This document shows positions 25,280 through 44,712 of a DNA stretch of 64,000 nucleotides, one piece after another. The stretch lies in the NCBI GenBank assembly GCA_963701965.1, contig OY969695.1, forward strand, positions 3,328,001 through 3,392,000. Direction: 5' to 3'. The position numbers and the translations under genes are program-made. Under the pieces are notes generated by a model that had not been told where the DNA came from, made no database searches, and saw nothing but the letters and a program-made list of their open reading frames with translations. Every line of letters begins with the position of its first letter. Position 1 is the first letter of the stretch. This DNA is from an uncultured Gemmatimonadales bacterium. Its GTDB lineage: Bacteria; Gemmatimonadota; Gemmatimonadetes; Gemmatimonadales; Gemmatimonadaceae.

Positions 25280-25507
25280 TTAGAGCAGTGGCGGCGCGTG
25301 CAATGTGGCGTAGTGCTTCTCCGCCTCTTCGGCGTGCTGGGCCGCGAACGTGTGGTGCGCATGCGCGACGTACGCGTGGTATCCGGCCCTCTCGTGGTTG
25401 CCGGCGTCGTGGTGCTTCGCGGCCTCGAGATGATGCCGGGCCGCCTGTTGATAATGCTCGGCGGCCTCGCGGTGGTGCGTGGATCCGGAATGCGGTGACA
25501 TGGACAT
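25280..25507 (-). CDS. Small His-rich helical protein
   Basis: 16 His in 75 aa (HHREAAEHYQQAARHHLEAAKHH...); TATAGT upstream at 25536-25531. Confidence 0.8.
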   Translation of the reverse strand: MSMSPHSGSTHHREAAEHYQQAARHHLEAAKHHDAGNHERAGYHAYVAHAHHTFAAQHAEEAEKHYATLHAPPLL

Positions 25508-25572
25508 TTCCCCGGGCGACGGTCGCGCCCACTATAGCGCGCCGTCGCCTGGTTCCGCCAGTCACGGCGCGC

Positions 25573-27710
25573 TTACTGCCGGGCCATGACCATCCGGATC
25601 AAATCCTTGGGGTCGACCAGGTGATCCTGCGTGTCGGCCCCCGCGTGCAGCTCCACCCAGTCGATCGTGCCGTTGAACACGCCGTTCGGCGTGCTCGCCT
25701 CGTCGGGTGTCACCGGCGTGCCAGTGAAACGTCCCACGTCCGTCGTTTCATCCAGCGAGTAGGCATTCGGAATCGTGCGGTCGACGCGCCCGCGCCCGAC
25801 TTCCTTGCCGTCGACCAGGACCACGGCGGTCCCCCCTTTGCCGACGCCACCGCCATCGTACGTGAATTCCATCCGAATCTGGTGCTTGCCCGCCGGCACC
25901 ACCGACTTCCCCTCCACCACGTAGCGTTGCGCGCCGAGGAAGTTGTAGCAGTACATCGGCCGCCCGTCTTTCATGTAGATCGACCAGCCGCCGAACTTGC
26001 CCCCTTGCTCGACAATGTTGCCCTGGCCGGGCGCACCGTCGGGTAGCGCCACTTGCGCCGTGATCGTGTGCGATTTGTTCTTGAGGACGAGGACCGAGTT
26101 TTCCTGCAGGCGCTTCATGCCCGCCGCCAGGATCTGCGTGTCGCCCCGGATCAACTCCGGCCGCCCCGCCAGGTCCGCGTTGAACCGTTCGATCCGCCGA
26201 TCGTCGAGCGGGAGACAGTAGTACTTCGCGGCCTCGATCAAGAACAAGCGTTGCAACTCGGCGAGGCGACCGGGTTCCTGTGTGGCCAGGTCGCGAGCCT
26301 GCGACCAGTCCTTGGTCGTGTCGTACAGCTCCCAACGGTCTTCGTCGAATGGCGTCGCGGAACTCTCGGAGACCCAGGGCGGCGCGTGTATGGTGCTGGC
26401 GATCCACCCCTGATGATAGATCCCCCGATTGCCGCCGATTTCGAAATACTGGGTTTCGTGTCGTTCGGCGGCATTGGCATCGTCGAAGCTGTAGGCCATG
26501 CTCACGCCATGAAACGGCGTCTGTTGCACTCCATTCACCGCCGTCGGCTGCGGGAGTCTGGCGGCTTCCATGATCGTCGGCGCGACGTCGATCACGTGGG
26601 TGAACTGCGTCCGCATCTGGCCCTTGGCCTTGATGCCGAGCGGCCAGTGCACGATGCAGCCGTTCCGCGTGCCGCCGAGGTGCGACGCGACCTGTTTGGT
26701 CCATTGATAGGGTGTGTCCAACGCATGCGCCCATCCGACCGCATAGTGATTGAACGAGTCGACGCCGCCCAGCTTGTCGAGGTTGGCGATCATGACCTCT
26801 GGCGCATCCAGATCCTGGGCGCCGTTGAACATGTACCCTTCGTTGAGCGTCCCATGGAGCCCGCCCTCGGCCGACGCGCCGTTGTCGCCGATGATCAGGT
26901 AGACCAGGGTGTCGCGCAGGATCTCGATCTTCTCTAGATCATCCAGCAGTCGACCGATATGATGATCGGCGAATTCCAAAAATCCGGCGTAGACCTCCAT
27001 CTGCCGCGCCAATGCTGGTTTGAGCTTGGCATCGATCGTGTCCCAGGCCGGGATGTCCCCGTGGCGCGGGGTGAGGACGGCGTCCTTGGGGATCGTGCCC
27101 AGTTGCTTTTCCCGGGCAAAGATTTTCTCGCGCAGCTTGTCCCAGCCGTCGTCGAACTGCCCTTTGTACTTGTCGGCCCATTCTTTCGGGACGTGGTGCG
27201 GCCCGTGGGCCAGCGGTCGAACGGTCCGACCGGGCTTGTCTCCCACGTTGGCGTCTCGTGCGCTTTGCCGAACTGCGCGGTGCTGTAGCCGTTGAGTTTG
27301 AGCATCTCGGCGAGCGGCGCACAGTAGTTCGGCCGGATGCCCGAGTAGCCAGGAGCCGACGTGGCGATCTCGGTGATGCCGCCCATGCCCACATAGTGGT
27401 GATTGCGTCCTGTGAGCAGCGCGGCCCGCGTGGGGGAGCACAGCGCCGTGGTGTGAAAGCGCGTGTACCGTAACCCATCGGCGGCGAGCCGCTCGGCGTT
27501 CGGTGTGTTGATCACGCCCCCGAACGCGCTCGATGAGCCGAACCCCGCGTCATCGATCAGAATGACCAGCACGTTGGGCGCGCCTTTCGGTGGGCGCAGC
27601 GGTTCGATCGGCGGATACTTGGCCGCCGGGTCGGCGGCGGAGAATGGTCGCACGCCTTGGTACGGCTGATCGGGAATCGGGAGTGTCTCGCGCTGCACGG
27701 TCTTGTTCAT
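25573..27710 (-). pseudogene. Arylsulfatase (FGly-dependent, Cys-type) with an internal frameshifting deletion near 27205
   Basis: N-part: LIDDAG, CSPTRAALLTGR, FGKAH...FDRWPTG. C-part in another frame: PHHVPKEW, GDNG, HVIDVAPT, LamG-like C-terminus. The usual GF-x-YFYGF...PFF-x-Y segment is absent. Confidence 0.85.
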
Positions 27711-28930
27711 CGCGTCTCCGGCTTGTTCCAGGTATGGGAGAACGAACGCCACCGCGTCCGACGCGGGCTATGCGACTTAGGTCGAAGGGCGAGCGCGGCG
27801 AACGGAAACAGGAACACGGATATCATTCCCGCGCCCACCAACGCCGCCGCGTTGTCCGTGCGCATCCGACCGGTGGCGACGCCGATCTCGGCGATGGCCA
27901 CGATCAGCGGGAGGCCGGTAGCCGAAAACAGCGCCAGCGGCGCGAGGTCCGCGCGCGGGAGGTCGCCGCGGTAGAGCACGACCGGCGATCCGCGCACCAG
28001 GAGCATGAGCGCGAGAAACACCGGCAATCGGAGCAGGCTGCTGGCCGATGCGATCAGGGCGTGCAGATCGAAGTGGACTCCGCTCGTGATGAAGAAGATC
28101 GGTACCAGAAATCCAAACCCGATCCCGTCCAGCTTCTCGCGGAGGGGCGCCCCCGGGTGATCCCTCGCGGCGAGCGACACCACCATGCCGGCCGCGAACG
28201 CGCCAAGAATGAGATCGAGGCCGAACCGCTGCGCCAGATCCACGAGCGCGACCAGGAGCAGGAGGGAGACGCGAACCGGGAGTTGGTTCGAGGCGTGCAT
28301 GCCGCGCCCAAAGAGGCGGACCGCCGTCGCCGGGCGATACCGCACCGCGACGATCGCGGCCGCGAGCGCGACGGCGGCAAACGTGAGCAAGAAAGCCACG
28401 TGTGCCGCGCGCCCCGTGCGGCCCGTGAACACCAATGCCATGAGCACGATCGGACCGAACTCGCCCATGGCGGCCGCCGCCAGCGCCATCGAGCCGAAGC
28501 GTCCCTCGATCTCGCCGGAGTCCCGCAAGATCGGGATCAGAATGCCCAGCAATGTCGTGCACAGTGCGATCGTCACCAGGACCGTGGCGCGGAGGAATCC
28601 CGACAGGTGCAACAGCACCGCGATCACGGCCGACAGGCCAAGCGAGATCAACCAGCCCTTGGCGGCGAGCTGTAGGGGCCGGCCGCGGACGCGCGTGAAG
28701 TCGACCTCCAGTCCGGCGAGAAAGAACAGAAAAGCGAGGCCCAGCACGCCAAGGAACCCCAGAGCGCCCCCGGCCGCCGTGAGCTTGAGCACTTGTGGCC
28801 CGATCACGATGCCGAATGCGATCTCGAGGACAACGGCGGGCAGACGCCGCCGCAGCGGCAAATCGGCGATCAAGGGCGCCAGCACCGCGACCGCGGACAC
28901 GACGAGCAGCGCGACCAGATCGACTTCCAT
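27707..28930 (-). CDS. Cation:proton antiporter (CPA2, Na+/H+ exchanger family)
   Basis: LPAVVLEIAFGIVIGP, FLAGLEVD, ILGAFAAG, GFGFLVPIFFITSG; about 12 TM helices. Confidence 0.9.
   Translation of the reverse strand: MEVDLVALLVVSAVAVLAPLIADLPLRRRLPAVVLEIAFGIVIGPQVLKLTAAGGALGFLGVLGLAFLFFLAGLEVDFTRVRGRPLQLAAKGWLISLGLSAVIAVLLHLSGFLRATVLVTIALCTTLLGILIPILRDSGEIEGRFGSMALAAAAMGEFGPIVLMALVFTGRTGRAAHVAFLLTFAAVALAAAIVAVRYRPATAVRLFGRGMHASNQLPVRVSLLLLVALVDLAQRFGLDLILGAFAAGMVVSLAARDHPGAPLREKLDGIGFGFLVPIFFITSGVHFDLHALIASASSLLRLPVFLALMLLVRGSPVVLYRGDLPRADLAPLALFSATGLPLIVAIAEIGVATGRMRTDNAAALVGAGMISVFLFPFAALALRPKSHSPRRTRWRSFSHTWNKPETR
27774..27783 (-). promoter_or_regulatory. GACCWAGGTC-type box upstream of the sulfatase
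   Basis: GACCTAAGTC on the minus strand about 64 bp before ATG 27710; no clear -10 at 26 bp; lies in the antiporter 3' tail. Confidence 0.4.
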
Positions 28931-28970
28931 CGGGATCAAGCGTGGCGACCCAAGACGAAGCGGACAATAC

Positions 28971-28998
28971 TACCTAGGTCCCAGATCCGACCAAGGTC
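28971..28998. promoter_or_regulatory. Two GACCWAGGTC-type boxes in a divergent promoter
   Basis: TACCTAGGTC 28971-80 (minus: 26 bp to CACGCT) and GACCAAGGTC 28989-98. Confidence 0.7.
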
Positions 28999-29051
28999 TA
29001 ATGGGCTCACCCGCGCGCTCCCGCCGAGTGTACATCAGGCAGGGAGGACCC

Positions 29052-29612
29052 ATGCATCGCATTGTGATCGCGCTGATGACACTCAGCGCTTCGGCGGTGG
29101 CCGCGCAACAACCGCCAGCCGGCCAACCGCAGACGAGCCCGGGACAAGTCGCACCGACGACGCCGGCGACGAGCCAACCGGCGAACCAGCTCTCGTCGAG
29201 CCTCGGGGTATACGCGTTCCCGGGGAAGGGCCAGACCGCTCAACAGCAACAGCAGGACGAGTACGACTGCTACGGGTGGGCCAAGCAGCAGACCGGGATC
29301 GATCCCAATGTGCCGGCTCAGCCGCCGGCGCAACCGGCCGCGAACCAACCCTCGGGCGCCGCGGTCGGAGGAGCAGCGAAAGGCGCGGCCGCGGGTGCGC
29401 TGATCGGTGTCGCAGCCGGCAATGCGGGCACGGGTGCGGCGGTCGGAGCGGCAGCCGGTGGAGTCGGTGGGGTCAGGAAGAAGAAGAAGACCGAGGCCGC
29501 GCAGCAGCAAAAGGCTCAGGAGACGGCGAAGCAAACCGCCGACTCGACCAAAGCGACGTTCGGGCGCGCCTTCAGTGCCTGTATGGAGCCCAAGGGCTAT
29601 ACGATGAAGTAG
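29052..29612 (+). CDS. Secreted glycine-zipper protein
   Basis: GGAGG RBS; signal peptide; FPGKGQTAQQQQQDEYDCYGWA; GAAKGAAAGALIG zipper; FSACMEPKGY. Confidence 0.85.
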   Translation: MHRIVIALMTLSASAVAAQQPPAGQPQTSPGQVAPTTPATSQPANQLSSSLGVYAFPGKGQTAQQQQQDEYDCYGWAKQQTGIDPNVPAQPPAQPAANQPSGAAVGGAAKGAAAGALIGVAAGNAGTGAAVGAAAGGVGGVRKKKKTEAAQQQKAQETAKQTADSTKATFGRAFSACMEPKGYTMK

Positions 29613-29631
29613 TCGAAGTAGTCGACATGTA

Positions 29632-29673
29632 GTCCAAAGTCGACTAGGCGGCGGCGCGCGCGGCGGATAGCCT
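29632..29673 (+). promoter_or_regulatory. Box plus -10 promoter for the DUF1622 operon
   Basis: GTCCAAAGTC-N26-TAGCCT-N7-GTG. Confidence 0.65.
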
Positions 29674-29680
29674 GTCGCGC

Positions 29681-30022
29681 GTGGCGCACGATACGTTCGA
29701 GCAGGTCGTTGACTGGATCGGCCTCGGCGTCGACGCGGGTGCCGCGTTGTTGATCGCGATCGGCGCCATCGAGGCGTTCGTGCGCTCGATCCACGCACTG
29801 ATCACGGGGAAAGAAACGGCGGGCGAGCGGAAGGCCGCCTGGCTGCGCTTCTCGGTCTGGCTCCTCCTGGCGCTCGAGTTCGAGCTGGCGGCCGACATCA
29901 TCAAGAGTGCCATCGCGCCCACATGGACCTCGGTCGGGCAGCTCGCCGCGATCGCCGTCATCCGCACGTTTCTGAATTATTTTCTCGAACACGACATCGA
30001 ACGTGCGGAGCACTTGGCATGA
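29681..30022 (+). CDS. DUF1622 membrane protein
   Basis: LLLALEFELAADII.SAIAPTW...GQLAAIAVIRTFLNYFL..DIE. Confidence 0.9.
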   Translation: MAHDTFEQVVDWIGLGVDAGAALLIAIGAIEAFVRSIHALITGKETAGERKAAWLRFSVWLLLALEFELAADIIKSAIAPTWTSVGQLAAIAVIRTFLNYFLEHDIERAEHLA

Positions 30023-30387
30023 ACCAGAATTCGCTGTCGGACCACCTGGCCAACGAACGGACCTACCTGGCGTACGTCCGGACGACCATCGCCCTCATCA
30101 GCTTCGGCATCACCATCAACCGATTCAGTCTGTACCTGATCCAGCTCAAGGAATTGGACCCGACCCCAATGGGCCGCCGGCTATTCCTCGCGGACACGGA
30201 GCAGTTGGGGTTCACGATGGTGATCGCCGGGATTGTGCTCATCATCTGGTCCGCCATCCGCTATACCGTCGTGAGCAACCAGATCGAACGCGGCGAGTTC
30301 GTCCCGAACCGGACCATGATCTGGCTCATGACCGTGGGGATCCTGGCCCTCGGCGCGCTCAGCGTCATATGGTTGTTTCAACGGTAG
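30019..30387 (+). CDS. DUF202/YidH-family membrane protein
   Basis: DHLANERTYLAYVRT..ALISFG; 3 TM helices. Confidence 0.9.
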   Translation: MNQNSLSDHLANERTYLAYVRTTIALISFGITINRFSLYLIQLKELDPTPMGRRLFLADTEQLGFTMVIAGIVLIIWSAIRYTVVSNQIERGEFVPNRTMIWLMTVGILALGALSVIWLFQR

Positions 30388-31223
30388 AGACGATTGACGA
30401 GCGGTCACTCCGCCATCCATGGGAGTGGCCGGTCTTTGTTGGTACCGTGACGGTCAATCTCGCGCTCCTGGTCGGCGCCGTCCTCGTCATCGCCTACGGC
30501 CCGTCATGGTTGGCCGACCATCCCTTCTTGAAGAGGTGGGCCGAGCATTTGCGGGCGTTGGCCGTGGCCGCGCTCCTGGGTGTGCCGACCCTCGTGTTCC
30601 TTCGCAACACGCGCCATGCCCTCACCCACGGGAACGGCATCCTGTTGTCTGCGGACCAGATGCCGGACATCCACGGCCTGCTGACGCGGCACTGCGCGGC
30701 GTTGGGCATGCCGCTGCCGACCCTCTACGTGTCCCAATCGGAGTCCCATCTGGCGCGCGCCTACTCGTCCTGGCGGGACCACTATATCGTGCTCGGCACC
30801 AACCTCCTGCAGGCGGACATCGGCGCCATCGCCAATGCATTGGGATTCCAGATCGCGCGAGAGGTCGGTCGCCTTCGGCTCGGTCACACCGTGTGGTGGG
30901 ATGAGCTGCTCGTGTCCTATGTCGTGCGCATTCCCGTTCTGCGGAATCCGCTGGGTCAGATCCGCACCTACTCGGCGGATCGCTACGGCGGATTTCTGGA
31001 ACCGCATGGCGTGCGCGGCCTCATCGCCTTGGCCGCGGGACGCCGCATGTTACCGCGGGTGGACGTGGGCGCATACTTGCGCATGCCGCCCGACACGCCG
31101 CACCTCACGGCGCTCCTGGCGCGGTGGAGCAAGGCCACACCACCCGTCGCGCGCCGGGTGCACACCCTCTACCGGCTGGGCCTCTTCAAAAGTTCAATGT
31201 CAGCGTCAGCGCGAGCGCATTGA
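30369..31223 (+). CDS. M48 peptidase-like membrane protein lacking the Zn ligands
   Basis: Two TMs; QMPDIH, PTLYV, FQIAREVGRLRLGH (HExxH position), TYSADR, TPPVARRV. Confidence 0.7.
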   Translation: MVVSTVETIDERSLRHPWEWPVFVGTVTVNLALLVGAVLVIAYGPSWLADHPFLKRWAEHLRALAVAALLGVPTLVFLRNTRHALTHGNGILLSADQMPDIHGLLTRHCAALGMPLPTLYVSQSESHLARAYSSWRDHYIVLGTNLLQADIGAIANALGFQIAREVGRLRLGHTVWWDELLVSYVVRIPVLRNPLGQIRTYSADRYGGFLEPHGVRGLIALAAGRRMLPRVDVGAYLRMPPDTPHLTALLARWSKATPPVARRVHTLYRLGLFKSSMSASARAH

Positions 31224-31836
31224 CATCATCGACCGTCGGGTCCTTGTCGTTCTTATGGACCAGGCCAAAGTCGATCGATGCCTGCTTCGTGAACTGCCAC
31301 TCGGCGCCGATCTGCGTCTCGATCCGCGTGAACATCTTCTTGACCAAGTCGTAGTACGCCTCCGTCTGCAGGTACGGCGTCACCGAGTGATGGTCGCCCA
31401 GGTCCACGCCCCGTTCAATGCGCGGCCGATTGCGGTAGCGCGGCTTGAAGTCATTGCTGAGCCACCGAAAATCGAACCGGTTCCGGTCCTGAAAGCGAAA
31501 GGAGGATGGGAGGTCCACGCTGAATGTCGCCGCGGCCACGGCGCGGTTCTCGTCCGAGGACGGATTCGCCACCGATCCGAGGTAGCTGTAGCCACCGCGC
31601 ACCGATACCCAGGACGCCAGCTTCGAGTCGATGTACGCACCAACCTCGAGTTGATGGAACTGGATCTCGCGCGAATCGGTGTAGTTCGTCAACAGCAGCA
31701 GCCGGGTGCCTGGGATCAGCGTCTTGTAGGCATCGATCTCGGGCCAGAACTCCCAGTGCACGCCCTGGGCGCGCACCGGCCAGGCGGCGAGGCTCAGCAG
31801 TCCCATCACGCCCGCGAGACGGCGCGCGCCTCTCAT
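31186..31836 (-). CDS. Outer-membrane beta-barrel (DUF2490-like)
   Basis: Signal peptide; ENR, DRNRFDFRW, RYRNR, C-terminal LTLTLNF. Confidence 0.75.
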   Translation of the reverse strand: MRGARRLAGVMGLLSLAAWPVRAQGVHWEFWPEIDAYKTLIPGTRLLLLTNYTDSREIQFHQLEVGAYIDSKLASWVSVRGGYSYLGSVANPSSDENRAVAAATFSVDLPSSFRFQDRNRFDFRWLSNDFKPRYRNRPRIERGVDLGDHHSVTPYLQTEAYYDLVKKMFTRIETQIGAEWQFTKQASIDFGLVHKNDKDPTVDDVNALALTLTLNF

Positions 31837-31843: not shown

Positions 31844-31918
31844 ATCTTGGGTGGCGCTCGCGCGGACGCCTACGTCGACCTAGGTCGAATAGTCGCGCGC
31901 GCCGCCGCGGTGTAGCGT
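31844..31918. promoter_or_regulatory. Perfect box serving divergent promoters
   Basis: TCGACCTAGGTCGA palindrome (core 31877-86). Plus: N26-TAGCGT-N6-ATG 31925. Minus: N27-CAAGAT-N7-ATG 31836. Confidence 0.75.
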
Positions 31919-35340: not shown

Positions 35341-35455
35341 GGACCCCCCAACCTGCGATCGACTGGACTCATGATCGGCCTTGGGGCTTGTCACCGGCCA
35401 TTGGCTCTTGGTCGACACTCCGGTTAAGTTGAGCCTGGTTGGTCAGGAGGCTGTG

Positions 35456-35905: not shown

Positions 35906-35926
35906 CGCCAAGAAGTCGCAGGCGTA

Positions 35927-35968
35927 TACCTAGGTCCAACTGATAGGGGATCGCGCTCGCGATACGAT
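35927..35968 (+). promoter_or_regulatory. Box plus -10 promoter
   Basis: TACCTAGGTC-N26-TACGAT-N7-ATG 35976. Confidence 0.75.
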
Positions 35969-37715: not shown

Positions 37716-38377
37716 TACTGCGGTGTATTCATCGTGGCAGTGGCTCCGGCGTTCTCCGCGGTCTCCACGACGAACACCGCGCGGCGATTCTGCATGGCTC
37801 CCGGGTCGTCCTTCTGTGCGTCGGGATGCACGAGGCGCTCCTTGCCGTAGCCCACCGTGCGCAGATGTTCGGCGTCGAGGCCCTTGGTCTGGAGATACTG
37901 CGAGACCGCGTCCGCCCGCCGCTTCGAGAGCGCGAGGTTGTAGGCCTTCGATCCCGCCGGATCGGCGAACCCTTCCACCGTGACGACCGAGCCTCCGTAG
38001 AACTTGCTCACCACCTGCGCGAACTTATCGAGCGCCGCGTAGTCGTTCTCGGCCACGGTCGCGTCGTTGAACGCGAAGTTCACCGGCACCGCGAAGCGAA
38101 TGGTGCTGCCCATGGTGGACACCGCGGTGTGGAACTGCGTGCGCAGCGAGTCGAGTGCCGCCTGCTGCTGCGCGATCTGCGTCTTGGTGTTGGCGTCATC
38201 GGCTTCGCGGGCGGCGGCTTCCTTGGCTACCGCGGCGTTGACGGAAGAATCGACGTAGGCGGTCGACACCTTGTTGCTGGCCATCATCTGGTCCTTCACC
38301 CACCCCTTCGACGCGCATGCCGCGATGAGTGGGGAGACCAGGCCCAACGCGATCGTGGACGTGAGCCGCGCGTTCAT
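37715..38377 (-). CDS. OmpA/Pal-family peptidoglycan-binding lipoprotein
   Basis: GGAGG RBS; lipobox AAC; FAFND, EGFAD..GSKAYNLALSKRRA, GYGKE, NRR. Confidence 0.9.
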   Translation of the reverse strand: MNARLTSTIALGLVSPLIAACASKGWVKDQMMASNKVSTAYVDSSVNAAVAKEAAAREADDANTKTQIAQQQAALDSLRTQFHTAVSTMGSTIRFAVPVNFAFNDATVAENDYAALDKFAQVVSKFYGGSVVTVEGFADPAGSKAYNLALSKRRADAVSQYLQTKGLDAEHLRTVGYGKERLVHPDAQKDDPGAMQNRRAVFVVETAENAGATATMNTPQ

Positions 38378-38423: not shown

Positions 38424-38498
38424 AACCTACGAACCCGGAGGGCACATGCCGATGTGGACCAAAGTACTATTTGCCCGGGTGTCGCCCGGATCTAGCCT
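38424..38498. promoter_or_regulatory. Box serving divergent ompA and FGE promoters
   Basis: GACCAAAGTA 38457-66. Plus: N26-TAGCCT-N6-GTG 38505. Minus: N27-TAGGTT. Confidence 0.7.
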
Positions 38499-38504: not shown

Positions 38505-39428
38505 GTGGCATCGGTCGAGACGCATGACATGATCTGGATCCCCAGCGGCGCTTTCCGCATGGGGTCGAACGAGCACTACCCTGAGGAGCGGCCGGTGCAC
38601 CGCGTCGAGGTCGATGGATTCTGGATCGACCGCGCGCCGGTGACCAACGAGCGATTTGCCGAGTTCGTCGCCGAATCGGGACACGTCACGTTCGCGGAGA
38701 TCGCACCGGACCCGGCCGACTATCCCGGCGCGCTGCCCCACATGCTGTACGCGGGGTCGCTCGTGTTCATCAAGCCGCGGAATCGGGTCGACCCCTGGTG
38801 GCACTACGTCGCCGATGCCGACTGGCGCCATCCGCAAGGGCCCGGCAGCTCGCTCGATGGACGCGAGAAACACCCCGTCGTGCACGTGACGTACGGCGAC
38901 GCCGCCGCGTTCGCGCGCTGGGACAACAAGGATCTTCCGAGCGAAGCGGAGTGGGAGCGCGCGGCGCGGGGCGGACTGGACGGCGCCGCCTACGCGTGGG
39001 GTGACGAGTTCCTGCCCGACGGCCGCATCATGGCCAACACGTGGCAGGGCGAGTTTCCATGGCAGAATAGATGCACCGACGGATACGAGGGGACGTCGCC
39101 GGTCGGGGCGTTCCCGCCGAATGCGTTCGGGCTGTGGGACATGATCGGCAACGTGTGGGAGTGGACCACCGATTGGTACGCGCCCCGGCATCCCGAGCCC
39201 ATCAAACCCTGCTGCATGCCGAAGAATCCGCGCGGCGGTCTCGAGGGCGAGAGCTACGATCCGGCCCAGCCCGCCATCCGCATTCCCCGCAAAGTGCTCA
39301 AGGGCGGCTCGCATCTCTGCGCGCCGAACTACTGCCGGCGCTATCGGCCGGCCGCGCGGCATCCGGAACCGATCGACACCTCGACGTCCCACGTGGGATT
39401 CCGCTGCATCGTACGTCCGGTGCGATGA
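38505..39428 (+). CDS. Formylglycine-generating enzyme (sulfatase-modifying factor)
   Basis: FRMGS..HYPEE.P, HPVVHV, LPSEAEWE, DMIGNVWEW, KGGSHLCAPNYCRRYRPAAR (both catalytic Cys), GFRC. Confidence 0.95.
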   Translation: MASVETHDMIWIPSGAFRMGSNEHYPEERPVHRVEVDGFWIDRAPVTNERFAEFVAESGHVTFAEIAPDPADYPGALPHMLYAGSLVFIKPRNRVDPWWHYVADADWRHPQGPGSSLDGREKHPVVHVTYGDAAAFARWDNKDLPSEAEWERAARGGLDGAAYAWGDEFLPDGRIMANTWQGEFPWQNRCTDGYEGTSPVGAFPPNAFGLWDMIGNVWEWTTDWYAPRHPEPIKPCCMPKNPRGGLEGESYDPAQPAIRIPRKVLKGGSHLCAPNYCRRYRPAARHPEPIDTSTSHVGFRCIVRPVR

Positions 39429-39784
39429 GGCTGCCGGGCGGCACCCTCGGAGAACGCTGGCTCCGCGAGTTGGCCGTGCTCTACCGGGTCCTGCGACATC
39501 CCAGGACGCCATGGTATGTGCGCGGCGTGGCGGCGTGCGCCGTCGGATACGTGCTCAGTCCGATTCAACTCATCCCCAGTTTCATCCCGGTCATCGGCCA
39601 ACTGGACGATGTGTGCGTGCTCCTCGTGGGCGACAAGCTCGTGCGCGCTCTGGTGCCGGATGATGTACTTGGCGAGTGCGAGATCCTGGCGCGACGAACG
39701 CCTCCCACCGCGGTGCTCGGGTTCGTCGCGTTATCGGTGGCGGCAGCGGTGGCCGTCTTTCTCGTCGCCTACTCGACGGGATAG
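39425..39784 (+). CDS. YkvA/DUF1232 membrane protein
   Basis: HPRTPWY....A...GYVLSPIQLIPSFIPVIGQLDD. Confidence 0.85.
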   Translation: MRLPGGTLGERWLRELAVLYRVLRHPRTPWYVRGVAACAVGYVLSPIQLIPSFIPVIGQLDDVCVLLVGDKLVRALVPDDVLGECEILARRTPPTAVLGFVALSVAAAVAVFLVAYSTG

Positions 39785-40380
39785 CGCATCATGGTGACAA
39801 GCCCGAAGACGCAACACCCGAAAGCCAGGGCGAGGAGTGCGGTGCGGGACGGGATCGACGGGATCTGTTGCGATATGCCGGCAAGAAAGAGGACGGACGC
39901 GAACACGACGGCCAGGAGCACGTACTGATCGCTCTGCTGGTTCGCCGCCTGCGCTTCACTGAACGCGCGCTTGGAGGCGAGCTCGAGGCGCCGGGACGAA
40001 TCCGCGAACGCGAGGCGATACTCGGGCAGCGTAAACGGGCTCGGCGCCGCGTTCGGATTCTCGAGCGGGTGACTGGCGATCCAGACATTGAACGCCGGCC
40101 GGAACTCGTCACGAAAGCGTGCACTGAGGAAACTGGCCAGGCGTTGATTGCCACTGGTGAAGGCATTGAGCCACGAGGCGAACATCCCAATGTCGACCCC
40201 CGCCCGCTGTCCCGCCTCCGTGGACATGCGTGTCGCCTCGACGCGGAGGGTGCTCGCGTCGCTGTATCGCGCCGCCTGGACGCCGCCCCACCGCGTGGCC
40301 TGGTAGCCGACCCACGACGACGCCAGGCCCGCGGCCGAGAGCAGCACCGTCGCGACCACGTCGAGTCGCGCCGGTGTCAC
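39769..40380 (-). CDS. Hypothetical membrane protein (3 TM, periplasmic loop)
   Basis: SWVGYQATRW.G.Q, FRDEFRPAF..W, PSPF.LPEY, SDQYVL..V.FASVLF; GTG overlaps the upstream stop. Confidence 0.75.
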   Translation of the reverse strand: MTPARLDVVATVLLSAAGLASSWVGYQATRWGGVQAARYSDASTLRVEATRMSTEAGQRAGVDIGMFASWLNAFTSGNQRLASFLSARFRDEFRPAFNVWIASHPLENPNAAPSPFTLPEYRLAFADSSRRLELASKRAFSEAQAANQQSDQYVLLAVVFASVLFLAGISQQIPSIPSRTALLALAFGCCVFGLVTMMRYPVE

Positions 40381-41756
40381 GGGGCCGCGAGGCGGAATCC
40401 CGCGATGAGGGTGATACTCGTGTAGTTGATCTTCGCGCCGGCCGGTAGGACGGGGGTGTCCCTGATCGTCGTCGTCAGGCCCGACTGCTGCGTGGACGAG
40501 CCGAACGCCACGTCGGCGCCGAGTACGAAATCGGACCGGCCGAATTGCCAGGACACACCACCGGTGAAGTGGTACAGATCCCACCGCGAGATGAGCGCGT
40601 TGTTGTCCTGAGCCGGGCCCAGGGAGCTGAAGTCCGTGCGAAAACTCACGTAGCCGGCGAACGTGTTCGCGAACTGGTGCTCCACGCCTATGCCACCATT
40701 GGTGACGGCATCGAGCTTCTGCTCCACTACGCCGGTCAAGGCCGCCCCGCCAGTCTGCGGCGTGAACGGAAGCGGCGACAGAATGCTATAGGCGTCCACG
40801 CTGCTGAACCACTCGCCCGCGACATGAATGGTCGTGGAGCCGACGCCGTTGCCGATCAGGTAGGAACCGCCGGCGCCGATCGCGGTCGGCGAATGGTAGG
40901 TGGCCGACAAATCCTGCTGAAAGTTGTCGGCGACCAATGGCGACGTCGGGCCATTGCCTTGCACCCCTTGATTGATGGTCGTCGCGTTTCGACCGACCTG
41001 GCCGCTCCCGAGCAACTTCAGTCCCGGCGTCGTGAGCACGATGCCGGCCCGGAGATGCGGGTACACGAACCCGACGCCGATCTTGGCCATGAGACGCCAG
41101 TGCGTGTAGGAGAAATCGTAATCGCGGAGTACAATGCCGCCGGTGCCGTTCACGCCCACCACTTCGGCGTTGGCCTCGGCGCGCTCGTTCTGGTTGCGGA
41201 CGGCAACATACGGCGTGATCCCGATGCCGATATGTTCGTTGAACGGATGCGAATACGTGATCCCGCCCCAATACTCGCCCAAATGCTGATGCAGCCGGAC
41301 CGTGCCCGTCGCCGATGAGACGTTGGGCGCGCTGATGGCCGTATCGATCGGGATGTCCCGGCCTTCAATGTCGATATCGAGACTCTGGCGCGTCAGAAAC
41401 GAGTACGCCAATCGGTCCTTACCGCCGATCTTGATCTCGCCCGCGAAGAGACTCGGCAACCCGACGACCGAGGTGCTGCCGAGCGTGCGACCCGGGCCCG
41501 CGCCGTTCACGTATTTCAGCGAGGAGTACTGATAGGCACTGCCCGCCACGGCGAACTCGTCGCGTGACGTGAGGGCGAGCGAGCCCGGATCGTAGAACGT
41601 CCCGCCGAGATCGTTCGCGCTCCCGATGACCACGCCGCCCAGGAGCTGGGCCCGCGTCCCGTAAGCGACGGTCCAATATTGCGCGTCCTGCCCGAGGGCG
41701 GACTGGGCGCCGAGGCTGCCGGCGACGCCGACGACAAACCACCATGGCCTACTCAC
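40377..41756 (-). CDS. FadL/OmpP1-like outer-membrane beta-barrel
   Basis: Signal peptide; N-terminal plug GTRAQLLGG....ND...TFYDPGSL (NPA-like); amphipathic strands. Confidence 0.65.
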   Translation of the reverse strand: MSRPWWFVVGVAGSLGAQSALGQDAQYWTVAYGTRAQLLGGVVIGSANDLGGTFYDPGSLALTSRDEFAVAGSAYQYSSLKYVNGAGPGRTLGSTSVVGLPSLFAGEIKIGGKDRLAYSFLTRQSLDIDIEGRDIPIDTAISAPNVSSATGTVRLHQHLGEYWGGITYSHPFNEHIGIGITPYVAVRNQNERAEANAEVVGVNGTGGIVLRDYDFSYTHWRLMAKIGVGFVYPHLRAGIVLTTPGLKLLGSGQVGRNATTINQGVQGNGPTSPLVADNFQQDLSATYHSPTAIGAGGSYLIGNGVGSTTIHVAGEWFSSVDAYSILSPLPFTPQTGGAALTGVVEQKLDAVTNGGIGVEHQFANTFAGYVSFRTDFSSLGPAQDNNALISRWDLYHFTGGVSWQFGRSDFVLGADVAFGSSTQQSGLTTTIRDTPVLPAGAKINYTSITLIAGFRLAAP

Positions 41757-41763
41757 GCCCAAG

Positions 41764-41805
41764 ACGCTACGGAATGCGGTGCGCGGAGGACAGTCGACCT
41801 AGGTC
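41764..41805 (-). promoter_or_regulatory. Box plus -10 promoter embedded in the kinase 3' end
   Basis: GACCTAGGTC (41805-41796)-N26-TAGCGT-N7-GTG 41756. Confidence 0.75.
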
Positions 41806-43122
41806 TAGTGTGGAGTCGGTGACGCACGGCAACGTGAACCCAATGGTGGCACCACGATCCGGATTGCTGCGGCAGAAGATGGTGCCCCCGTGCATCTCGA
41901 CGATCGAGCGGCAGATCGGCAGGCCCATGCCCAGGCCGCGCGGCTTGGTCGTGAAAAAGGGCTCGAACAGGCGCGGCATGTCCTCGGCCGCGATACCGCG
42001 TCCCGCGTCGCGCACGGCGAGCTCAATGTGCGTCGCGTCGGAGCGCTGGGCGGTCAACAGCACCCCGCCCGCCGGCGGACCATTATCGCTGGGAAGGGCA
42101 TCGAAGGCGTTGAGCAGAAGATTGAGCAACACCTGCTGGAGTTGCACGCGGTCGCCGCGCACTGGAGGCAGACCGGGCGCGACGTCGACGCGGAGCGTCA
42201 CGCGTCGGGTCGCGGCCTCGTGCTGGACGAGATGGATGGTTTCGGCGACCAATTCGTCCGGATAGAGCGGCACGCGCTCGACGGCCGCCCGCCGGAACAA
42301 CGCCCGCATGCGCGCAATGATCTGATGCGCCCGACTGTCTTCGGCGGCGATCCGGCGCACAATGTCCCGGACGCGCTCGACATTCGGGGGATCGGCATCG
42401 AGAAACAACGACCCGGCCTCGGCACTGGCGAGGATGGCGCCCAACGGTTGATTGAGCTCGTGGGCCAGCGACGCGGCCAGCTCGCCCAGTGTGGTCACCC
42501 GGGCCACGTGGACCAGCTCGGCCCCGTGCTGTTGCGCGAGGTGCTCCGCGCGCACGCGGCCAAGGGCGTTGCCGATCAGATCGCCCATCGTGCGCACGAC
42601 GTCGGTCGCGAGGCGCCGCCGCGGCCACCGCACCGTCGCGCTGCCGAGCGCCAGCAGCGTCGGGTTGGGCCACGTGGGGAGTCCGACGACCACGGCGGAC
42701 CGCATGCCCCAGCCCGCGAACGTGTCGCGGTCGTCACGGGCGCCCACCGGCAGGCGACTCACATCCGGGATGCGGATCACGCCGTCGGGCAGCGCGCGCA
42801 TGGTGTGATGCGTCAACCGCGCGTCACGCGCGTCGCCGCTCCCCGGCCGCCGAGGGATCGATCAATGGACGGACGTGACGCGCAGTCGATCGGGTGCGTA
42901 CGTCACGAGCGACGCGGACTCGGCTTCGAGCGCGGCCACGGCGTGCTTCAGGATGTGCGCGGTCGCCATGTCCGCACTGGATGCGCCTGTTCGGACATGC
43001 ACCGACGACACGGCGCGGCCGAGTGTGTTGACAATCGACCGCCAGGACGGGCCCGGCATCCAGACGCAAATATGCAAGATCGCATCCGCGGCTCGTCCGA
43101 CCGGCGTATGACCTTGGGGCAA
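41767..43122 (-). pseudogene. GAF-like plus FixL/NodV-type histidine kinase with in-frame TGA at 42862-42864
   Basis: H-box ELAASLAHELNQPL, GDRVQLQQVLLNLLLNA, DAGRGI, FEPFFTTK, GLGMGL. ORF 42862..43122 is in the same frame (VTSVH*SIP). Start uncertain. Confidence 0.75.
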
Positions 43123-43151
43123 CGGCGTGACACGCGCCAGTGCGCTATTGT
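43110..43151 (+). promoter_or_regulatory. Box plus -10 promoter of the response regulator
   Basis: GACCTTGGGG-N26-TATTGT-N6-GTG 43158. Confidence 0.6.
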
Positions 43152-43157
43152 GCAGGC

Positions 43158-43820
43158 GTGTCGAATGCGCGGGTGGCGGTCATCGAGGATGACCGCGCGG
43201 TACGCGACTCGGTCGCGGACATGCTGATGGGCGTGGGCTACCGCGTATCGGCATTCGGGTCGGCGGAGGAGTTTCTGGCTTGCGACAATGCGCCGGACGG
43301 GACGGTGAGCTGTCTCGTGGTCGACGTGCACCTGCCCGCGGCCAGCGGCGTGGAACTGCAGCGGCGGTTGGTGGCCCGGGGGCGCGCCGTCCCGACTGTT
43401 TTCGTCACGGGATACGATGACGTCCCCACGACCGTGGCGGCAATGAAAGGCGGCGCCATCGACTTTTTGCTCAAACCCGTCTCCGCGTCCGCGCTGCTGA
43501 GCGCCGTGCGATCGGCGGTGGAGCAGGGGGCGCTCACGCTGGGCGATTCGCGGGTCACCGCCAATGCCGCGCACCGTCTGGCCCGCCTCACGCCGCGCGA
43601 GCGCGAGGTGTTCACGTTGGTCAGTCGCGGGTTGCTCAACAAGCAGATCGCCGCGCAACTCGGTGTGTCGATGGCCACCGTGAAAGCGCACCGGGGCCGC
43701 CTCACCCGCAAACTTTCCGTGTCGACGGTCGCGGATCTCGTCCGTCTGGCGGATCGCGTCAGTCTCGCGCTCGCGCACGTCGACCTAGGTGGAATGGCCG
43801 CAGACGCTATCCCCGCGTAG
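43158..43820 (+). CDS. FixJ/NodW-family response regulator (REC plus LuxR HTH)
   Basis: IEDD, CLVVDVHLP, AMKGGAIDFLLKP, LTPREREV, GLLNKQIA, TVKAHRG. Confidence 0.93.
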   Translation: MSNARVAVIEDDRAVRDSVADMLMGVGYRVSAFGSAEEFLACDNAPDGTVSCLVVDVHLPAASGVELQRRLVARGRAVPTVFVTGYDDVPTTVAAMKGGAIDFLLKPVSASALLSAVRSAVEQGALTLGDSRVTANAAHRLARLTPREREVFTLVSRGLLNKQIAAQLGVSMATVKAHRGRLTRKLSVSTVADLVRLADRVSLALAHVDLGGMAADAIPA

Positions 43821-43823
43821 TCT
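43782..43823 (+). promoter_or_regulatory. Box plus -10 promoter embedded in the regulator 3' end
   Basis: GACCTAGGTG-N26-TAGTCT, 9 nt before ATG 43833. Confidence 0.7.
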
Positions 43824-43832
43824 GTCTCCAGA

Positions 43833-44195
43833 ATGTTGGTCGGGATCGTGGAAGATGACGTAGGAATGCGTCAGGGACTCTCGTGGCTGCTATCGGCCGC
43901 CCGGTTCAATGTCGTGGCGTTCTCGTCAGCAGAGGAGTTCCTGCAGCGCAGCCAAGCGGAGCGGATCGACTGCTTGGTGCTCAATGTGCGCCTGCCGGCC
44001 ATGGACGGGTTGGCGTTGCGCCGCACGCTACGCGAACGGGGGGATCAAATGCCGACAGTGTTGATCAGCGGGCATGACGACAATGCGACGCGGGAACGGT
44101 TTCGCCGCGCAGGCATCACACGGTGGTTGCGCAAGCCATTCGACGGGCAAACCCTCATCGATGCGGTGCATGATGCCATCGGCAATCTTACGTAA
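43833..44195 (+). CDS. Single-domain receiver protein with Asn at the phospho-acceptor site
   Basis: VEDD, SAEEFL, CLVLNVRLPAMDG, ISG, LRKPF. Confidence 0.88.
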   Translation: MLVGIVEDDVGMRQGLSWLLSAARFNVVAFSSAEEFLQRSQAERIDCLVLNVRLPAMDGLALRRTLRERGDQMPTVLISGHDDNATRERFRRAGITRWLRKPFDGQTLIDAVHDAIGNLT

Positions 44196-44712
44196 GACTC
44201 ATGGTGTCGCAGGCCTGCTCGGCCTTGCCCTGGCGAGCGCACCGGCACTGGCGCAGGCGTCGTTTCTCATCGGACTGGGCGGCGCGTTTCCGGCGGGCGG
44301 CATCGCCAGCCGCATCGATCCCACGTTCGCGGGGCTGCTCGGCGTGGAGATCCAGGGGAAGGAGATGCCGGTTGGTCTGCGCATCGACGACACGTACGCC
44401 CAGTTCACAGGGCCGAACGGATGGGCGGCGATCGACGGCATCACGTTCGGCGGGGTGTTCGGGGAAAAACACCCGGGCAAGCTCGAGCCGTACGCCATCG
44501 CCGGCCTTGGTCCGTATTACGTGACTGGGTCGGCGCTGGGGGCGTCGTTCGCCGGGTATCGCTCGAGCTGGGTCTTCGGCATGAATGCTGGCGGCGGGAT
44601 CAAGTACGGCGGCCGCTTTGCCGTGTTTCTCGAAGCGCGATACCATCTCATGTTCCAGGGTGGCCAGGTCCTGCAGTACATCCCGGTCATGGTCGGGATC
44701 TCCCTACGTTAG
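44170..44712 (+). CDS. Small outer-membrane beta-barrel protein
   Basis: Signal peptide ending ALA-Q; PYAIAGLG, FGMNAGGG, FLEARYH, IPVMVGI; start approximate. Confidence 0.8.
   Translation: MMPSAILRKTHGVAGLLGLALASAPALAQASFLIGLGGAFPAGGIASRIDPTFAGLLGVEIQGKEMPVGLRIDDTYAQFTGPNGWAAIDGITFGGVFGEKHPGKLEPYAIAGLGPYYVTGSALGASFAGYRSSWVFGMNAGGGIKYGGRFAVFLEARYHLMFQGGQVLQYIPVMVGISLR

What the first reader, a model, noticed from the sequence alone, without database searches (positions are those of the whole stretch)
25280..44712. Envelope island of uncharacterised genes built around a sulfatase/FGE pair and about 7 outer-membrane barrels
Seen: arylsulfatase, its maturase FGE, and barrels of distinct families (DUF2490-, Omp85-, SphA-, 'neuromedin U'-, FadL-like, two small barrels). 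Also two DUF4136 lipoproteins, an OmpA lipoprotein, a glycine-zipper protein, DUF1622/DUF202/DUF1232, an antiporter and a kinase-regulator-receiver triad, in mixed orientations but sharing one upstream box. Inference: a co-regulated module for envelope remodelling or uptake of hydrophobic or sulfated compounds, giving guilt-by-association for many DUFs.
Basis: partly seen in the sequence, partly recalled or inferred. Interest (0 to 1): 0.7.

Follow-up and report, generated by a model that had tools for sequence, protein, structure and literature searches.

The report
FixJ-type regulon of envelope genes
A 19-kb cluster of outer-membrane, membrane and sulfatase-related genes carries the same 20-base palindrome at a fixed distance before nearly every predicted promoter, so it is likely a block of genes switched on together by a neighbouring two-component regulator: a familiar kind of switch on a little-studied gene set, whose sulfatase gene is broken here.

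Summary
The gene list is largely right and the shared box is real. Nine strong and two weak copies of a 20-bp palindrome (core GACC[A/T]AGGTC) lie 21-22 nt before a -10-like hexamer, often 6-9 nt before a start codon. That puts the centre near -43.5, where NarL binds at yeaR.

The same geometry recurs at orthologous promoters in a syntenic cluster of G462, in other relatives, and before sulfatase, DUF3300 and regulator genes elsewhere in this genome. The likely reader is the FixJ/StyR-like regulator at 43158-43820 or its paralogue.

Corrections:
- The sulfatase has lost about 226 nt and is frameshifted.
- It lies 11 kb from FGE and has no signal peptide, so the cluster is not built around it.
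- The His-rich gene at 25280 belongs to the flanking efflux locus.
- The kinase stop and the receiver D-to-N change sit in a CAATG context that looks error-prone in this assembly.

No catabolic pathway supports uptake of sulfated compounds; a broad envelope/stress response fits better but is untested. One specific lead: a model supports DUF4136 (34690-35340) binding the adjacent small barrel. It is a new member of a known kind of regulon.

The parts
25573..27207 (-). arylsulfatase, 3' piece (residues 244-787 of P0122), out of frame with the 5' piece
   Evidence: tblastn 85% identity, frame -2; Pfam Sulfatase
27201..27710 (-). arylsulfatase, 5' piece (residues 1-170) with the CxPxR motif and no signal peptide; about 226 nt missing at the junction
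   Evidence: tblastn 92% identity, frame -3; motif seen
27707..28930 (-). CPA2-type cation/proton antiporter; its stop overlaps the sulfatase start
   Evidence: Pfam Na_H_Exchanger 1.2e-39
27769..27788 (.). box, score 21.9, inside the antiporter's 3' end, 68 nt before the sulfatase start; no -10 hexamer at offset 20-23
28966..28985 (.). box, score 20.0; CACGCT at offset 21 (28944-28939), ATG 8 nt further (antiporter)
28984..29003 (.). box, score 20.6, tandem with the previous one; faces the glycine-zipper gene
29052..29612 (+). glycine-zipper protein with a signal-peptide-like start
   Evidence: Pfam Gly-zipper below cut-off
29627..29646 (.). box, score 16.6; TAGCCT at offset 21 (29668-29673), GTG 7 nt further
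29681..30022 (+). DUF1622 membrane protein
   Evidence: Pfam 1e-23
30019..30387 (+). DUF202 membrane protein
   Evidence: Pfam 3.7e-17
30390..31223 (+). M48/HtpX-like membrane protein lacking the HExxH motif (reads REVGR); start codon uncertain
   Evidence: weak NCBIfam HtpX 0.0047; 44% homologue in G010
31186..31836 (-). DUF2490 outer-membrane barrel
   Evidence: Pfam 5e-21
31872..31891 (.). strongest box, score 26.0, bidirectional: TAGCGT at +21 then ATG after 6 nt; CAAGAT at -22 then ATG after 7 nt
   Evidence: orthologous box in G462, L204:8143
31925..32437 (+). DUF4136 lipoprotein-like protein (first copy)
   Evidence: Pfam 1.5e-40
32456..34024 (+). Omp85/TamA-like protein (POTRA-like region plus barrel)
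   Evidence: Pfam Omp85 5.5e-5, below cut-off; NCBIfam BamA 1.5e-12, below cut-off; TamA 5.7e-4
34052..34687 (-). small OmpA-type barrel; predicted partner of the adjacent DUF4136 lipoprotein
   Evidence: Pfam OMP_b-brl 6.6e-4; complex model
34690..35340 (-). DUF4136 lipoprotein (second copy, lipobox Cys25)
   Evidence: Pfam 3.3e-26; adjacent to the small barrel also in G462, G085, G029, G132, G010
35399..35418 (.). weak box, score 10.8, facing the DUF4136-barrel operon
   Evidence: stronger box at the orthologous place in G462, L204:5838
35453..35905 (+). CdiI_N-domain protein
   Evidence: Pfam 2.1e-15; 68% orthologue beside a box in G462
35922..35941 (.). box, score 19.3; TACGAT at offset 21, ATG 7 nt further
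35976..36896 (+). SphA/COG4313-like barrel
   Evidence: Pfam Phenol_MetA_deg 9.4e-22
36897..37715 (-). 'neuromedin U'-labelled protein: predicted 12-strand barrel with an N-terminal helix, COG4313/FapF-like fold
37715..38377 (-). OmpA-domain lipoprotein
   Evidence: Pfam 1.1e-19; lipobox
38452..38471 (.). box, score 18.0, bidirectional: TAGCCT at +21 then GTG after 6 nt (FGE); TAGGTT at -22 (OmpA)
   Evidence: orthologous box in G462, L204:4912
38505..39428 (+). formylglycine-generating enzyme, intact, with the two-cysteine motif
   Evidence: Pfam 8.3e-82; PDB 6muj 6.3e-68, aligned through the motif
39425..39784 (+). DUF1232 membrane protein
   Evidence: Pfam 6.9e-12
39769..40380 (-). unnamed membrane protein, coupled to the FadL-like gene
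   Evidence: no Pfam hit; unnamed Atlas clusters at 0.97, DUF4337 lead at 24% of members
40377..41756 (-). FadL/TodX-fold barrel with N-terminal plug
41767..43059 (-). FixL-like soluble histidine kinase (GAF-like N-terminus by inference, HisKA, HATPase_c) with an in-frame TGA at 42862-42864 that may be an assembly error
41791..41810 (.). box, score 22.5, inside the kinase's 3' tail; TAGCGT at offset 21, GTG 7 nt further (FadL-like gene)
   Evidence: orthologous box in G462, L203:6788
43105..43124 (.). weak box, score 9.4, between kinase and regulator; TATTGT at offset 21, GTG 6 nt further (regulator's own promoter)
   Evidence: strong bidirectional box at the orthologous place in G462, L204:2173
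43158..43820 (+). FixJ/StyR-type response regulator (REC + GerE HTH), intact; candidate binder of the box
   Evidence: (FixJ 7.9e-48, below cut-off)
43777..43796 (.). box, score 23.2, inside the regulator's 3' tail; TAGTCT at offset 21, ATG 9 nt further (receiver gene)
   Evidence: same position in G462, L204:1490, and in the paralogous triad at G000:1128032
43833..44195 (+). single-domain receiver; Asn at the phospho-acceptor position, possibly an assembly error
44170..44712 (+). small OmpA-type barrel
   Evidence: Atlas OMP_b-brl clusters 0.97; 52% orthologue in G462

Best explanation
The cluster is likely the densest part of a regulon in which a FixJ/StyR-type response regulator would bind a 20-bp palindrome centred about 43-44 nt before the predicted transcription start and switch on envelope and membrane genes together. 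Shown: the palindrome, its fixed 21-22 nt distance to a -10-like hexamer, start codons 6-9 nt after that hexamer at nine promoters, its conservation at orthologous promoters in another genus, and copies at the regulator genes themselves. Inferred: that the hexamers are used as -10 elements and that many transcripts are leaderless. Also inferred: a sensor kinase phosphorylates the regulator at 43158-43820 and/or its paralogue at G000:1128008-1128658, and the dimer then recruits RNA polymerase next to the -35 region, as NarL does at yeaR. The most likely output (about even odds, untested) is a broad envelope/stress adjustment through channels, lipoproteins, an antiporter and small membrane proteins, not the breakdown of one substrate. 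The sulfatase copy here cannot make a full-length protein; the intact FGE would serve sulfatases elsewhere in the genome, two of which have a box upstream.
For: Anatomy: around the 9 island sites scoring >=16, 6 of the 12 TANNNT hexamers within 60 nt lie at offset 21 and 1 at offset 22 (frequency 0.0018 per position); the hexamer was not part of the matrix. Outside the island, the 71 best sites have 9 hexamers at offsets 20-23, against mean 1.2 and maximum 3 for 25 shuffled matrices.

Other genomes, TANNNT at offsets 20-23 against the other 56 offsets: G462, 21 boxes in 140 kb, 15 against 10; 17 further FixJ-type loci, 21 boxes, 5 (all at offset 21) against 11; 11 'neuromedin U' loci titled Gemmatimonadales, 15 boxes, 5 against 3.

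Synteny: 11 orthologues (44-68% identity) lie in G462:C1:3556867-3578068, with boxes at matching promoters. A second G462 cluster holds DUF1622, DUF202, DUF2490, the CdiI-like gene and FGE, with boxes.

Regulator link: of four FixJ-type regulators in G000, the two with boxes within 5 kb are this one (3) and the paralogue (4); the other two have 1 and 0. A box-plus-hexamer pattern gives 1.19 hits/Mb in 23 FixJ-positive against 0.61 in 126 FixJ-negative genomes (p 2.6e-4; 6.5e-4 without G462), with no difference for the reversed control. Close FGE homologues are in 8 of 23 against 3 of 126 genomes (p 1.2e-5), 6 of the 8 within about 11 kb of the regulator.

Precedent: NarL binds at -43.5 at yeaR (PMC10853779), StyR at about -40 (PMC2442086), a DevR primary box at -42.5 (PMC3177182); passages read.
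Against: No binding, transcription-start or expression data. The matrix was trained on island sites chosen by eye; in leave-one-out tests 29627 was matched by 90 outside sites and 43105 by 8550. The composite pattern was written after seeing G000 and G462; even FixJ-positive genomes hold fewer hits than control hits (113 against 146), and kin are not independent. Intergenic enrichment of the top 71 outside sites (0.51) does not exceed the best shuffled matrix (0.55). A 16-mer search of 400 other genomes was at chance level. The box is not seen at 69 'neuromedin U' loci of other taxa (1 against 20) or at 20 FadL-like loci (3 boxes in 395 kb). 'Neuromedin U' does not track the regulator (3 of 23 against 6 of 126, p 0.14) and DUF4136 only weakly (9 of 23 against 21 of 126, p 0.018). 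Several FixJ-type loci have no box (L208, L209, L211, L217, L218, L220). As assembled, the neighbouring kinase is interrupted. The stress reading rests only on the kinds of genes involved.
Confidence: 0.72

Rival explanations
1. A dedicated uptake and breakdown module for a hydrophobic or sulfated compound, induced like the StyS/StyR styrene system.
For: Three barrels belong to fold classes tied to uptake of hydrophobic molecules: FadL/TodX and COG4313/SphA twice (PMC4493636, passages). The regulator's closest solved relative is 1yio (StyR by my recall). Sulfatases lie beside 21 of 80 'neuromedin U' loci, against 1.3% of random G000 windows.
Against: No oxygenase, dehydrogenase, TonB receptor or ABC importer was found in the cluster. 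The sulfatase is broken and has no signal peptide. Box-led genes elsewhere are unrelated in kind: an SBF symporter, DUF3300/DUF2950, a HAD hydrolase, OmpA-DUF937, an alpha/beta hydrolase, a glucoamylase-like protein. Linked kinases differ in their sensor domains: GAF, MASE1-PAS-GAF, CHASE3.
Confidence: 0.13
2. The box is read by a regulator of another family encoded elsewhere (a Crp/Fnr-type activator or a repressor), and the FixJ-type triads are only targets.
For: A box before a regulator gene fits a target as well as autoregulation. Several FixJ-type loci have no box. An earlier scan note assigned a similar geometry to a FixK-like reader in another lineage (e1-5457344, not tested here).
Against: Box density follows the presence of FixJ-type genes across 149 genomes. 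The GAC-N4-GTC core resembles the GGGACT half-site of DevR, a NarL/FixJ protein. The position upstream of -35, with no conserved -35 seen, fits an activator better than a repressor.
Confidence: 0.08
3. The cluster is a decaying passenger in this genome: boxes and genes were inherited together, but the system is silent.
For: A 226-nt deletion in the sulfatase, a stop in the kinase and D-to-N in the receiver, two weakened boxes, and no match in five congeners. The truncated kinase and the Asn receiver are also listed from Logan.
Against: Both point lesions lie in CAATG/CATTG, one of the most over-represented 5-mers of this assembly. Two Logan twins of island proteins differ from the window only at CATTG codons. 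The other ORFs are open, nine boxes are strong, and a second triad with boxes exists in the genome.
Confidence: 0.07

Closest known systems
StyS/StyR and the STY2 site of the styABCDE promoter (Pseudomonas fluorescens ST; PMC2442086, passages read)
   Same: REC+GerE regulator; the best solved match is 1yio at E 3.5e-41 (that 1yio is StyR is recalled). The activator site lies at about -40. The regulated genes include a transport protein (StyE).
   Different: No catabolic operon here. There are about a dozen separate promoters in both directions and more across the genome. The linked kinase is a short soluble protein. The box sequence was not compared with STY2, as no sequence appeared in the passages read.
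NarL at the yeaR promoter (E. coli; PMC10853779, passages read)
   Same: NarL/FixJ-family HTH; a single palindromic site centred at -43.5, just upstream of -35, matches the spacing found here.
   Different: The box is not the 7-2-7 site quoted for yeaR. The regulator scores far better against FixJ (7.9e-48) than NarL (2.1e-15). There are no nitrate genes.
DevR/DosR and Dev boxes (Mycobacterium; PMC3177182, passages read)
   Same: 18-20-bp palindrome with a GAC...GTC core, a primary site near -42.5, and a dispersed stress-type regulon.
   Different: The DevR half-site is GGGACT, here (T)TG(G)ACC. DevR needs at least two tandem boxes, whereas only 1 tandem pair is seen among the strong island sites. 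The targets are outer-membrane genes.
FixL/FixJ of rhizobia
   Same: The best NCBIfam hits of kinase and regulator are FixL (1e-51) and FixJ (7.9e-48); PDB 5xso at 7.5e-36.
   Different: Both are far below the equivalog cut-offs (176 against 850; 163 against 255 bits). Pfam finds no PAS domain in the kinase or in its intact G462 orthologue. No fixK or nif targets were seen.
COG4313 channels (Pput2725, SphA) and FadL/TodX channels
   Same: Predicted folds of the 'neuromedin U'-like and 40377-41756 proteins; Pfam hit for 35976-36896.
   Different: 11-14% sequence identity and no substrate evidence. FapF (a secretion channel) and a chain of Bacteroidota BAM complexes score nearly as well, so the fold does not fix the function.

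Membership tests
NarL/FixJ-family activator regulon | response regulator with REC and GerE HTH, phospho-acceptor Asp, Thr and Lys kept | tested here: met
NarL/FixJ-family activator regulon | palindromic site next to -35, centred near -40 to -44 | tested here: met
   offset 21-22 nt to the -10-like hexamer; centre about -43.5 if the start lies about 7 nt after the hexamer, which is inferred
NarL/FixJ-family activator regulon | site conserved beside the regulator in other genomes | tested here: met
   G462, G010, G215 and L029; absent at several other FixJ-type loci
NarL/FixJ-family activator regulon | intact cognate kinase | tested here: inconclusive
   in-frame TGA in the assembly; open in G462; error-prone context; no reads across it
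NarL/FixJ-family activator regulon | direct binding and activation | not testable with these tools
   needs EMSA, footprint or reporter
FixL/FixJ proper | equivalog scores and a haem-PAS sensor | tested here: not met
   below NCBIfam cut-offs; no PAS domain
StyS/StyR- or TodS/TodT-type catabolic system | adjacent catabolic operon | tested here: not met
   none among the cluster proteins scanned
DevR/DosR regulon | GGGACT half-sites in obligate tandem boxes | tested here: not met
   oriented consensus differs; mostly single boxes
Type I (formylglycine) arylsulfatase | CxPxR motif | tested here: met
Type I (formylglycine) arylsulfatase | full-length open reading frame | tested here: not met
   deletion and frame change
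Formylglycine-generating enzyme | full FGE domain with the two-cysteine motif | tested here: met
Mobile genomic island | integrase, tRNA target, flanking repeats or atypical composition | tested here: not met
Mobile genomic island | empty site in relatives | tested here: inconclusive
   cluster not matched in 5 congeners, but the two flanks are not syntenic there

The most novel reading that the evidence does not exclude
The box defines an undescribed envelope-building regulon in which DUF4136 lipoproteins dock on the outer loops of small OmpA-type barrels at the cell surface, and the co-regulated Omp85-like and FadL-fold barrels act as an accessory machine that displays them, giving a first function to DUF4136 and its neighbours. 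Support: the complex model scores 0.61 against a best control of 0.01, a mark reached by 116 of 157 solved complexes and 2 of 215 mismatched pairs (counts only roughly valid with my alignments); runs share at least 77% of contacts, partner pLDDT at least 68. The pair is adjacent in five further genomes. No solved sequence relative of the barrel was found, and one single-chain entry for the lipoprotein. The FadL-fold model also matches chains of Bacteroidota BAM complexes. The display machine itself is speculation.
Probability: 0.12. Interest if true: 0.72.

Novelty: new member of a known kind. Interest (0 to 1): 0.42.

Why it matters
It turns a list of about ten unknown-function genes into a testable unit with a defined operator, predicted promoters and a candidate regulator, in a lineage with almost no regulatory genetics. 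It shows that the 'neuromedin U' label hides a COG4313-like outer-membrane barrel, and it offers a concrete partner for DUF4136. It also warns that this assembly may carry motif-linked base errors that make false stops and Asp-to-Asn changes. The mechanism is ordinary, and notes from this scan describe similar FixJ-type boxes in other lineages, so a specialist would find it useful more than surprising.

Tried and rejected
Reads: no RNA holder was listed, so expression is untested. Run X1 gave three short near-identical contigs that span neither the sulfatase junction nor the kinase stop; one of them covers a CATTG at 29060 and agrees with the window, so not every CATTG is an error.

A 16-mer box search in 400 other genomes of the order matched 24 of them, no more than the reversed control: uninformative.

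My first guess of a TCGA-specific error was not supported: 2 of 10 candidate internal stops were TTGA. A context-wise G-to-A count on 166 aligned genes showed no excess, 1580 against 1692. Only the D-to-N count (33 against 15; 10 against 2 after TC; 118 genes), the 5-mer excess and the two Logan twins point to CGATG-to-CAATG changes.

Intergenic enrichment of matrix hits (11 of 14 at score >=16) was dropped as main evidence after the shuffle control.

Repeat search found no terminal repeats. The 20 stretches around 19 of the 81 FadL-like matches, chosen from the better-scoring ones, showed few cluster neighbours and 3 boxes, so that barrel is often independent of the regulon. The representatives search for DUF4136 (1090 proteins) came too late for the complex job and was not used.

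Literature searches for this gene set or regulon gave no relevant title in the listings; I did not open those papers. The library lacks most subscription journals, and no supplements were searched, so a description in a table or database is not excluded. Look-ups of earlier scan notes by place and by the first word set were empty.

Rejected: NarL, DevR or FixJ membership in the strict sense; a mobile island; the His-rich gene as a part.

Full report
Setting. The window is G000:C1:3328001-3392000, from a single 5.12-Mb contig of 67% GC. The lineage is probably Gemmatimonadales, an inference from the titles of the closest named homologue loci. G012 is flagged as unpublished.

Gene content. Three proposed barrels had no Pfam hit and were tested further. 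The 'neuromedin U'-labelled protein (a name from source annotations) gives a confident 12-strand barrel with an N-terminal helix. Its best solved matches are the COG4313 channel 4rl8 and FapF. The 40377-41756 protein gives a plugged barrel that matches FadL, TbuX and TodX, and almost equally a chain of Bacteroidota BAM complexes. 44170-44712 groups with OMP_b-brl clusters. The Omp85-like protein has only sub-threshold hits.

Broken genes. Against P0122, residues 1-170 match 27710-27201 in one frame (92%) and residues 244-787 match 27207-25576 in another (85%). About 226 nt are missing and the frame changes. The protein has the CxPxR motif and no signal peptide. A full-length paralogue (65%) lies at G000:2156471-2158846. 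The kinase frame has a TGA at 42862-42864, where the 60% identical G462 orthologue is open, and the receiver has Asn where G462 has Asp. Both point changes lie in CAATG/CATTG. This is among the most enriched 5-mers of G000 relative to 1.7 Mb of other loci. D-to-N differences are skewed towards G000 (33 against 15 in 118 genes). Two Logan twins of island proteins each differ from the window by one residue, both at a CATTG codon. Against this, a general context count showed no G-to-A excess, the truncated kinase and the Asn receiver are themselves listed from Logan, and no read spans the sites. Methylation-linked nanopore errors are described (PMC11610573 and bioRxiv 10.64898/2026.01.14.699587; search listing only); the platform of G000 is not given. 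I put the odds that the kinase stop is an error at about two in three. The deletion is not explained that way.

Limits of the cluster. Five congeners have no blastn match to 25.5-44.7 kb beyond the OmpA domain and kinase/regulator fragments. The 'neuromedin U' protein was not found in the 24 same-family genomes searched (23 without G012). The FadL-like protein was found in 1 of 36 same-family genomes and 49 of 400 of the class. In G001 the His-rich gene follows the RND efflux genes without the cluster, so it is excluded. No tRNA, integrase, terminal repeat or marked GC shift was seen. It is accessory DNA, not a demonstrable mobile island.

The box. Five of the genome's 12 ACCTAGGT lie in the cluster (5.7e-10). 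A palindromic matrix from 10 sites chosen by eye scores nine island sites at 16.6 or more. In leave-one-out tests four had no equal outside the island, four had 4 to 25, and two were weak (90 and 8550). The decisive feature was not in the matrix: of 12 TANNNT hexamers within 60 nt of the nine sites, 6 start 21 nt and 1 starts 22 nt after the 20-mer. At nine promoters a start codon follows an NANNNT hexamer by 6-9 nt. If transcription starts about 7 nt after the hexamer, many mRNAs are leaderless and the box centre is near -43.5. Boxes at 31872 and 38452 serve both directions. Three boxes lie in the 3' tails of upstream genes. By my grouping of ORFs, 12 of 13 putative transcription units have a strong or weak box in front; the CdiI-like gene has no hexamer in its direction. 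Pooling 64 box-plus-hexamer promoters from the window and 37 other loci gives an oriented majority of about TG-GACC(A/T)AGGTC-(C/G)AAT.

Beyond the cluster in G000. The 71 best outside sites have 9 hexamers at offsets 20-23, against at most 3 for 25 shuffled matrices; their intergenic share (0.51) is not beyond the shuffles (maximum 0.55). Box-led genes include sulfatases at 733329 and 2151385, a HAD hydrolase, an SBF symporter, a DUF3300-DUF2950-DcaP run, OmpA-DUF937, and a second kinase-regulator-receiver triad at 1.127-1.130 Mb with a box at the same place in the regulator's 3' tail. The full-length 65% sulfatase paralogue has no box at score 10.5 or more before it.

Other genomes. A FixJ-type match at E <= 1e-30 was found in 23 of 150 other genomes of the order. 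G462, another genus of the family, holds 11 orthologues at 44-68% identity in C1:3556867-3578068, together with orthologues of G000's second regulator locus. Diverged boxes stand at the matching promoters, including a strong bidirectional one between kinase and regulator, where the window's copy is weak. A second G462 cluster holds DUF1622, DUF202, DUF2490, the CdiI-like gene, a sulfatase and FGE, with boxes and hexamers at offsets 20-21. Pooled counts of TANNNT at offsets 20-23 against the other 56 offsets are 15 against 10 (G462), 5 against 11 (17 other FixJ-type loci), 5 against 3 (11 Gemmatimonadales-titled 'neuromedin U' loci), 1 against 20 (69 loci of other taxa) and 0 against 0 (20 FadL-like loci). 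So this box version is lineage-limited. A box-plus-hexamer pattern gives 21 hits against 7 controls in G000 and 22 against 8 in G462. It gives 1.19 against 0.61 hits/Mb in FixJ-positive and FixJ-negative genomes (p 2.6e-4; kin not independent; pattern written after seeing G000 and G462).

Co-occurrence is real but loose. FGE is in 8 of 23 against 3 of 126 genomes, DUF4136 in 9 against 21, 'neuromedin U' in 3 against 6. Among the best 80 of 532 'neuromedin U' loci, sulfatase lies nearby in 21, FGE in 9, FixJ-type in 9, receiver in 8, kinase in 11 and DUF4136 in 5. The rates in random G000 windows are 1.3, 0.8, 4.7, 2.2, 16.7 and 0.3%. Ten of the cluster-region proteins queried had no hit in any of the 80. 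Sulfatase orthologues in G462 and G452 have no box in 20 kb, whereas the G215 one has.

Mechanism. Shown: box, spacing, conservation and association with FixJ-type genes. Inferred: a phosphorylated FixJ/StyR-type dimer binds the box and recruits polymerase beside -35, as shown for NarL at -43.5 of yeaR (PMC10853779, passages). StyR activates from about -40 (PMC2442086, passages) and a DevR primary box lies at -42.5 (PMC3177182, passages). The signal is unknown, and linked kinases carry different sensor domains. The targets are channels, lipoproteins, ion and solute transporters, small membrane proteins and assorted hydrolases without a catabolic route, so I favour a broad envelope/stress response over substrate-specific uptake. 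The barrel folds keep the latter possible (PMC4493636, passages).

A specific lead. The second DUF4136 lipoprotein and the small barrel are adjacent in the window and in G462, G085, G029, G132 and G010. A complex model supports binding without showing it: score 0.61, best of 3 controls 0.01. The mark was reached by 116 of 157 solved complexes and 2 of 215 mismatched pairs, counts that hold only roughly with my 9- and 6-row alignments. The runs share at least 77% of contacts and the partner's pLDDT is at least 68. The contact joins lipoprotein residues 11-22 to barrel residues 70-78 and 123-125 (mature numbering). By standard OmpA-barrel topology these are outer loops, so the lipoprotein would be surface-exposed; this step is inference. 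The PDB holds one sequence relative of the lipoprotein (4f54, a single chain) and none of the barrel, so recall of a like complex is not evident from sequence.

Novelty and verdict. Five literature searches gave no relevant title. Four earlier notes of this scan describe FixJ- or StyR-type boxes on envelope, stress, sulfatase or metallophore gene clusters in other genomes (unchecked, not evidence), which lowers the surprise. The finding is real, better described as the core of a FixJ-type regulon than as a sulfatase island, and a new member of a known kind. Interest 0.42.

Noticed in passing
G000 genome-wide; examples G000:C1:4811811-4812779, 4246447-4247076, 2156471-2158846; window 42863, 43982: CAATG/CATTG is over-represented, and conserved Asp codons read as Asn in this context, including a ribosomal protein S1-like gene (name from recall) and the phospho-acceptor of a third FixJ-type regulator. 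It suggests a motif-linked assembly error or a mutational signature.
   Followed up: partly
window 18118-19557: Kumamolisin-like S53/S8 protease ORF whose last residues look out of frame; possibly frameshifted.
   Followed up: no
window 19548-25507: RND efflux set (membrane-fusion, AcrB-type and outer-membrane proteins) followed by a 75-aa His-rich protein; the same order occurs in congener G001, which suggests a metal-binding partner of the pump.
   Followed up: partly
G000:C1:1124861-1130570 (L234): Second kinase-regulator-receiver triad with a GAF kinase, a CHASE3 kinase and OmpA-DUF937, carrying three boxes at promoter positions; its regulator and neighbours are joined to the island orthologues in G462.
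   Followed up: partly
G000:C1:1650386-1656740 (L236): Box before a DUF3300-DUF2950-unnamed-amidohydrolase-DcaP run on one strand; a likely further regulon member.
   Followed up: partly
L204:1027-1390 (G462): The receiver orthologue in G462 is split by a frameshift, so this gene is damaged or mis-assembled in both genomes.
   Followed up: no
window 30390-31223: M48-like protein with REVGR in place of HExxH and no clear ATG/GTG start; likely a non-catalytic homologue.
   Followed up: partly
L024:9899, L025:9839: In two Gemmatimonadales-titled genomes a lone 'neuromedin U' gene, without the other cluster genes, keeps a strong box, the hexamer at offset 21 and an ATG 7 nt later.
   Followed up: yes
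L126:17642-20000 (G181): Omp85-like and FadL-like homologues lie side by side, convergently, in one distant genome without boxes.
   Followed up: no
G000:C1:34055 and 46545: The same 20-mer (score 16.9) with identical flanks occurs twice in intergenic DNA, suggesting a duplicated segment.
   Followed up: no
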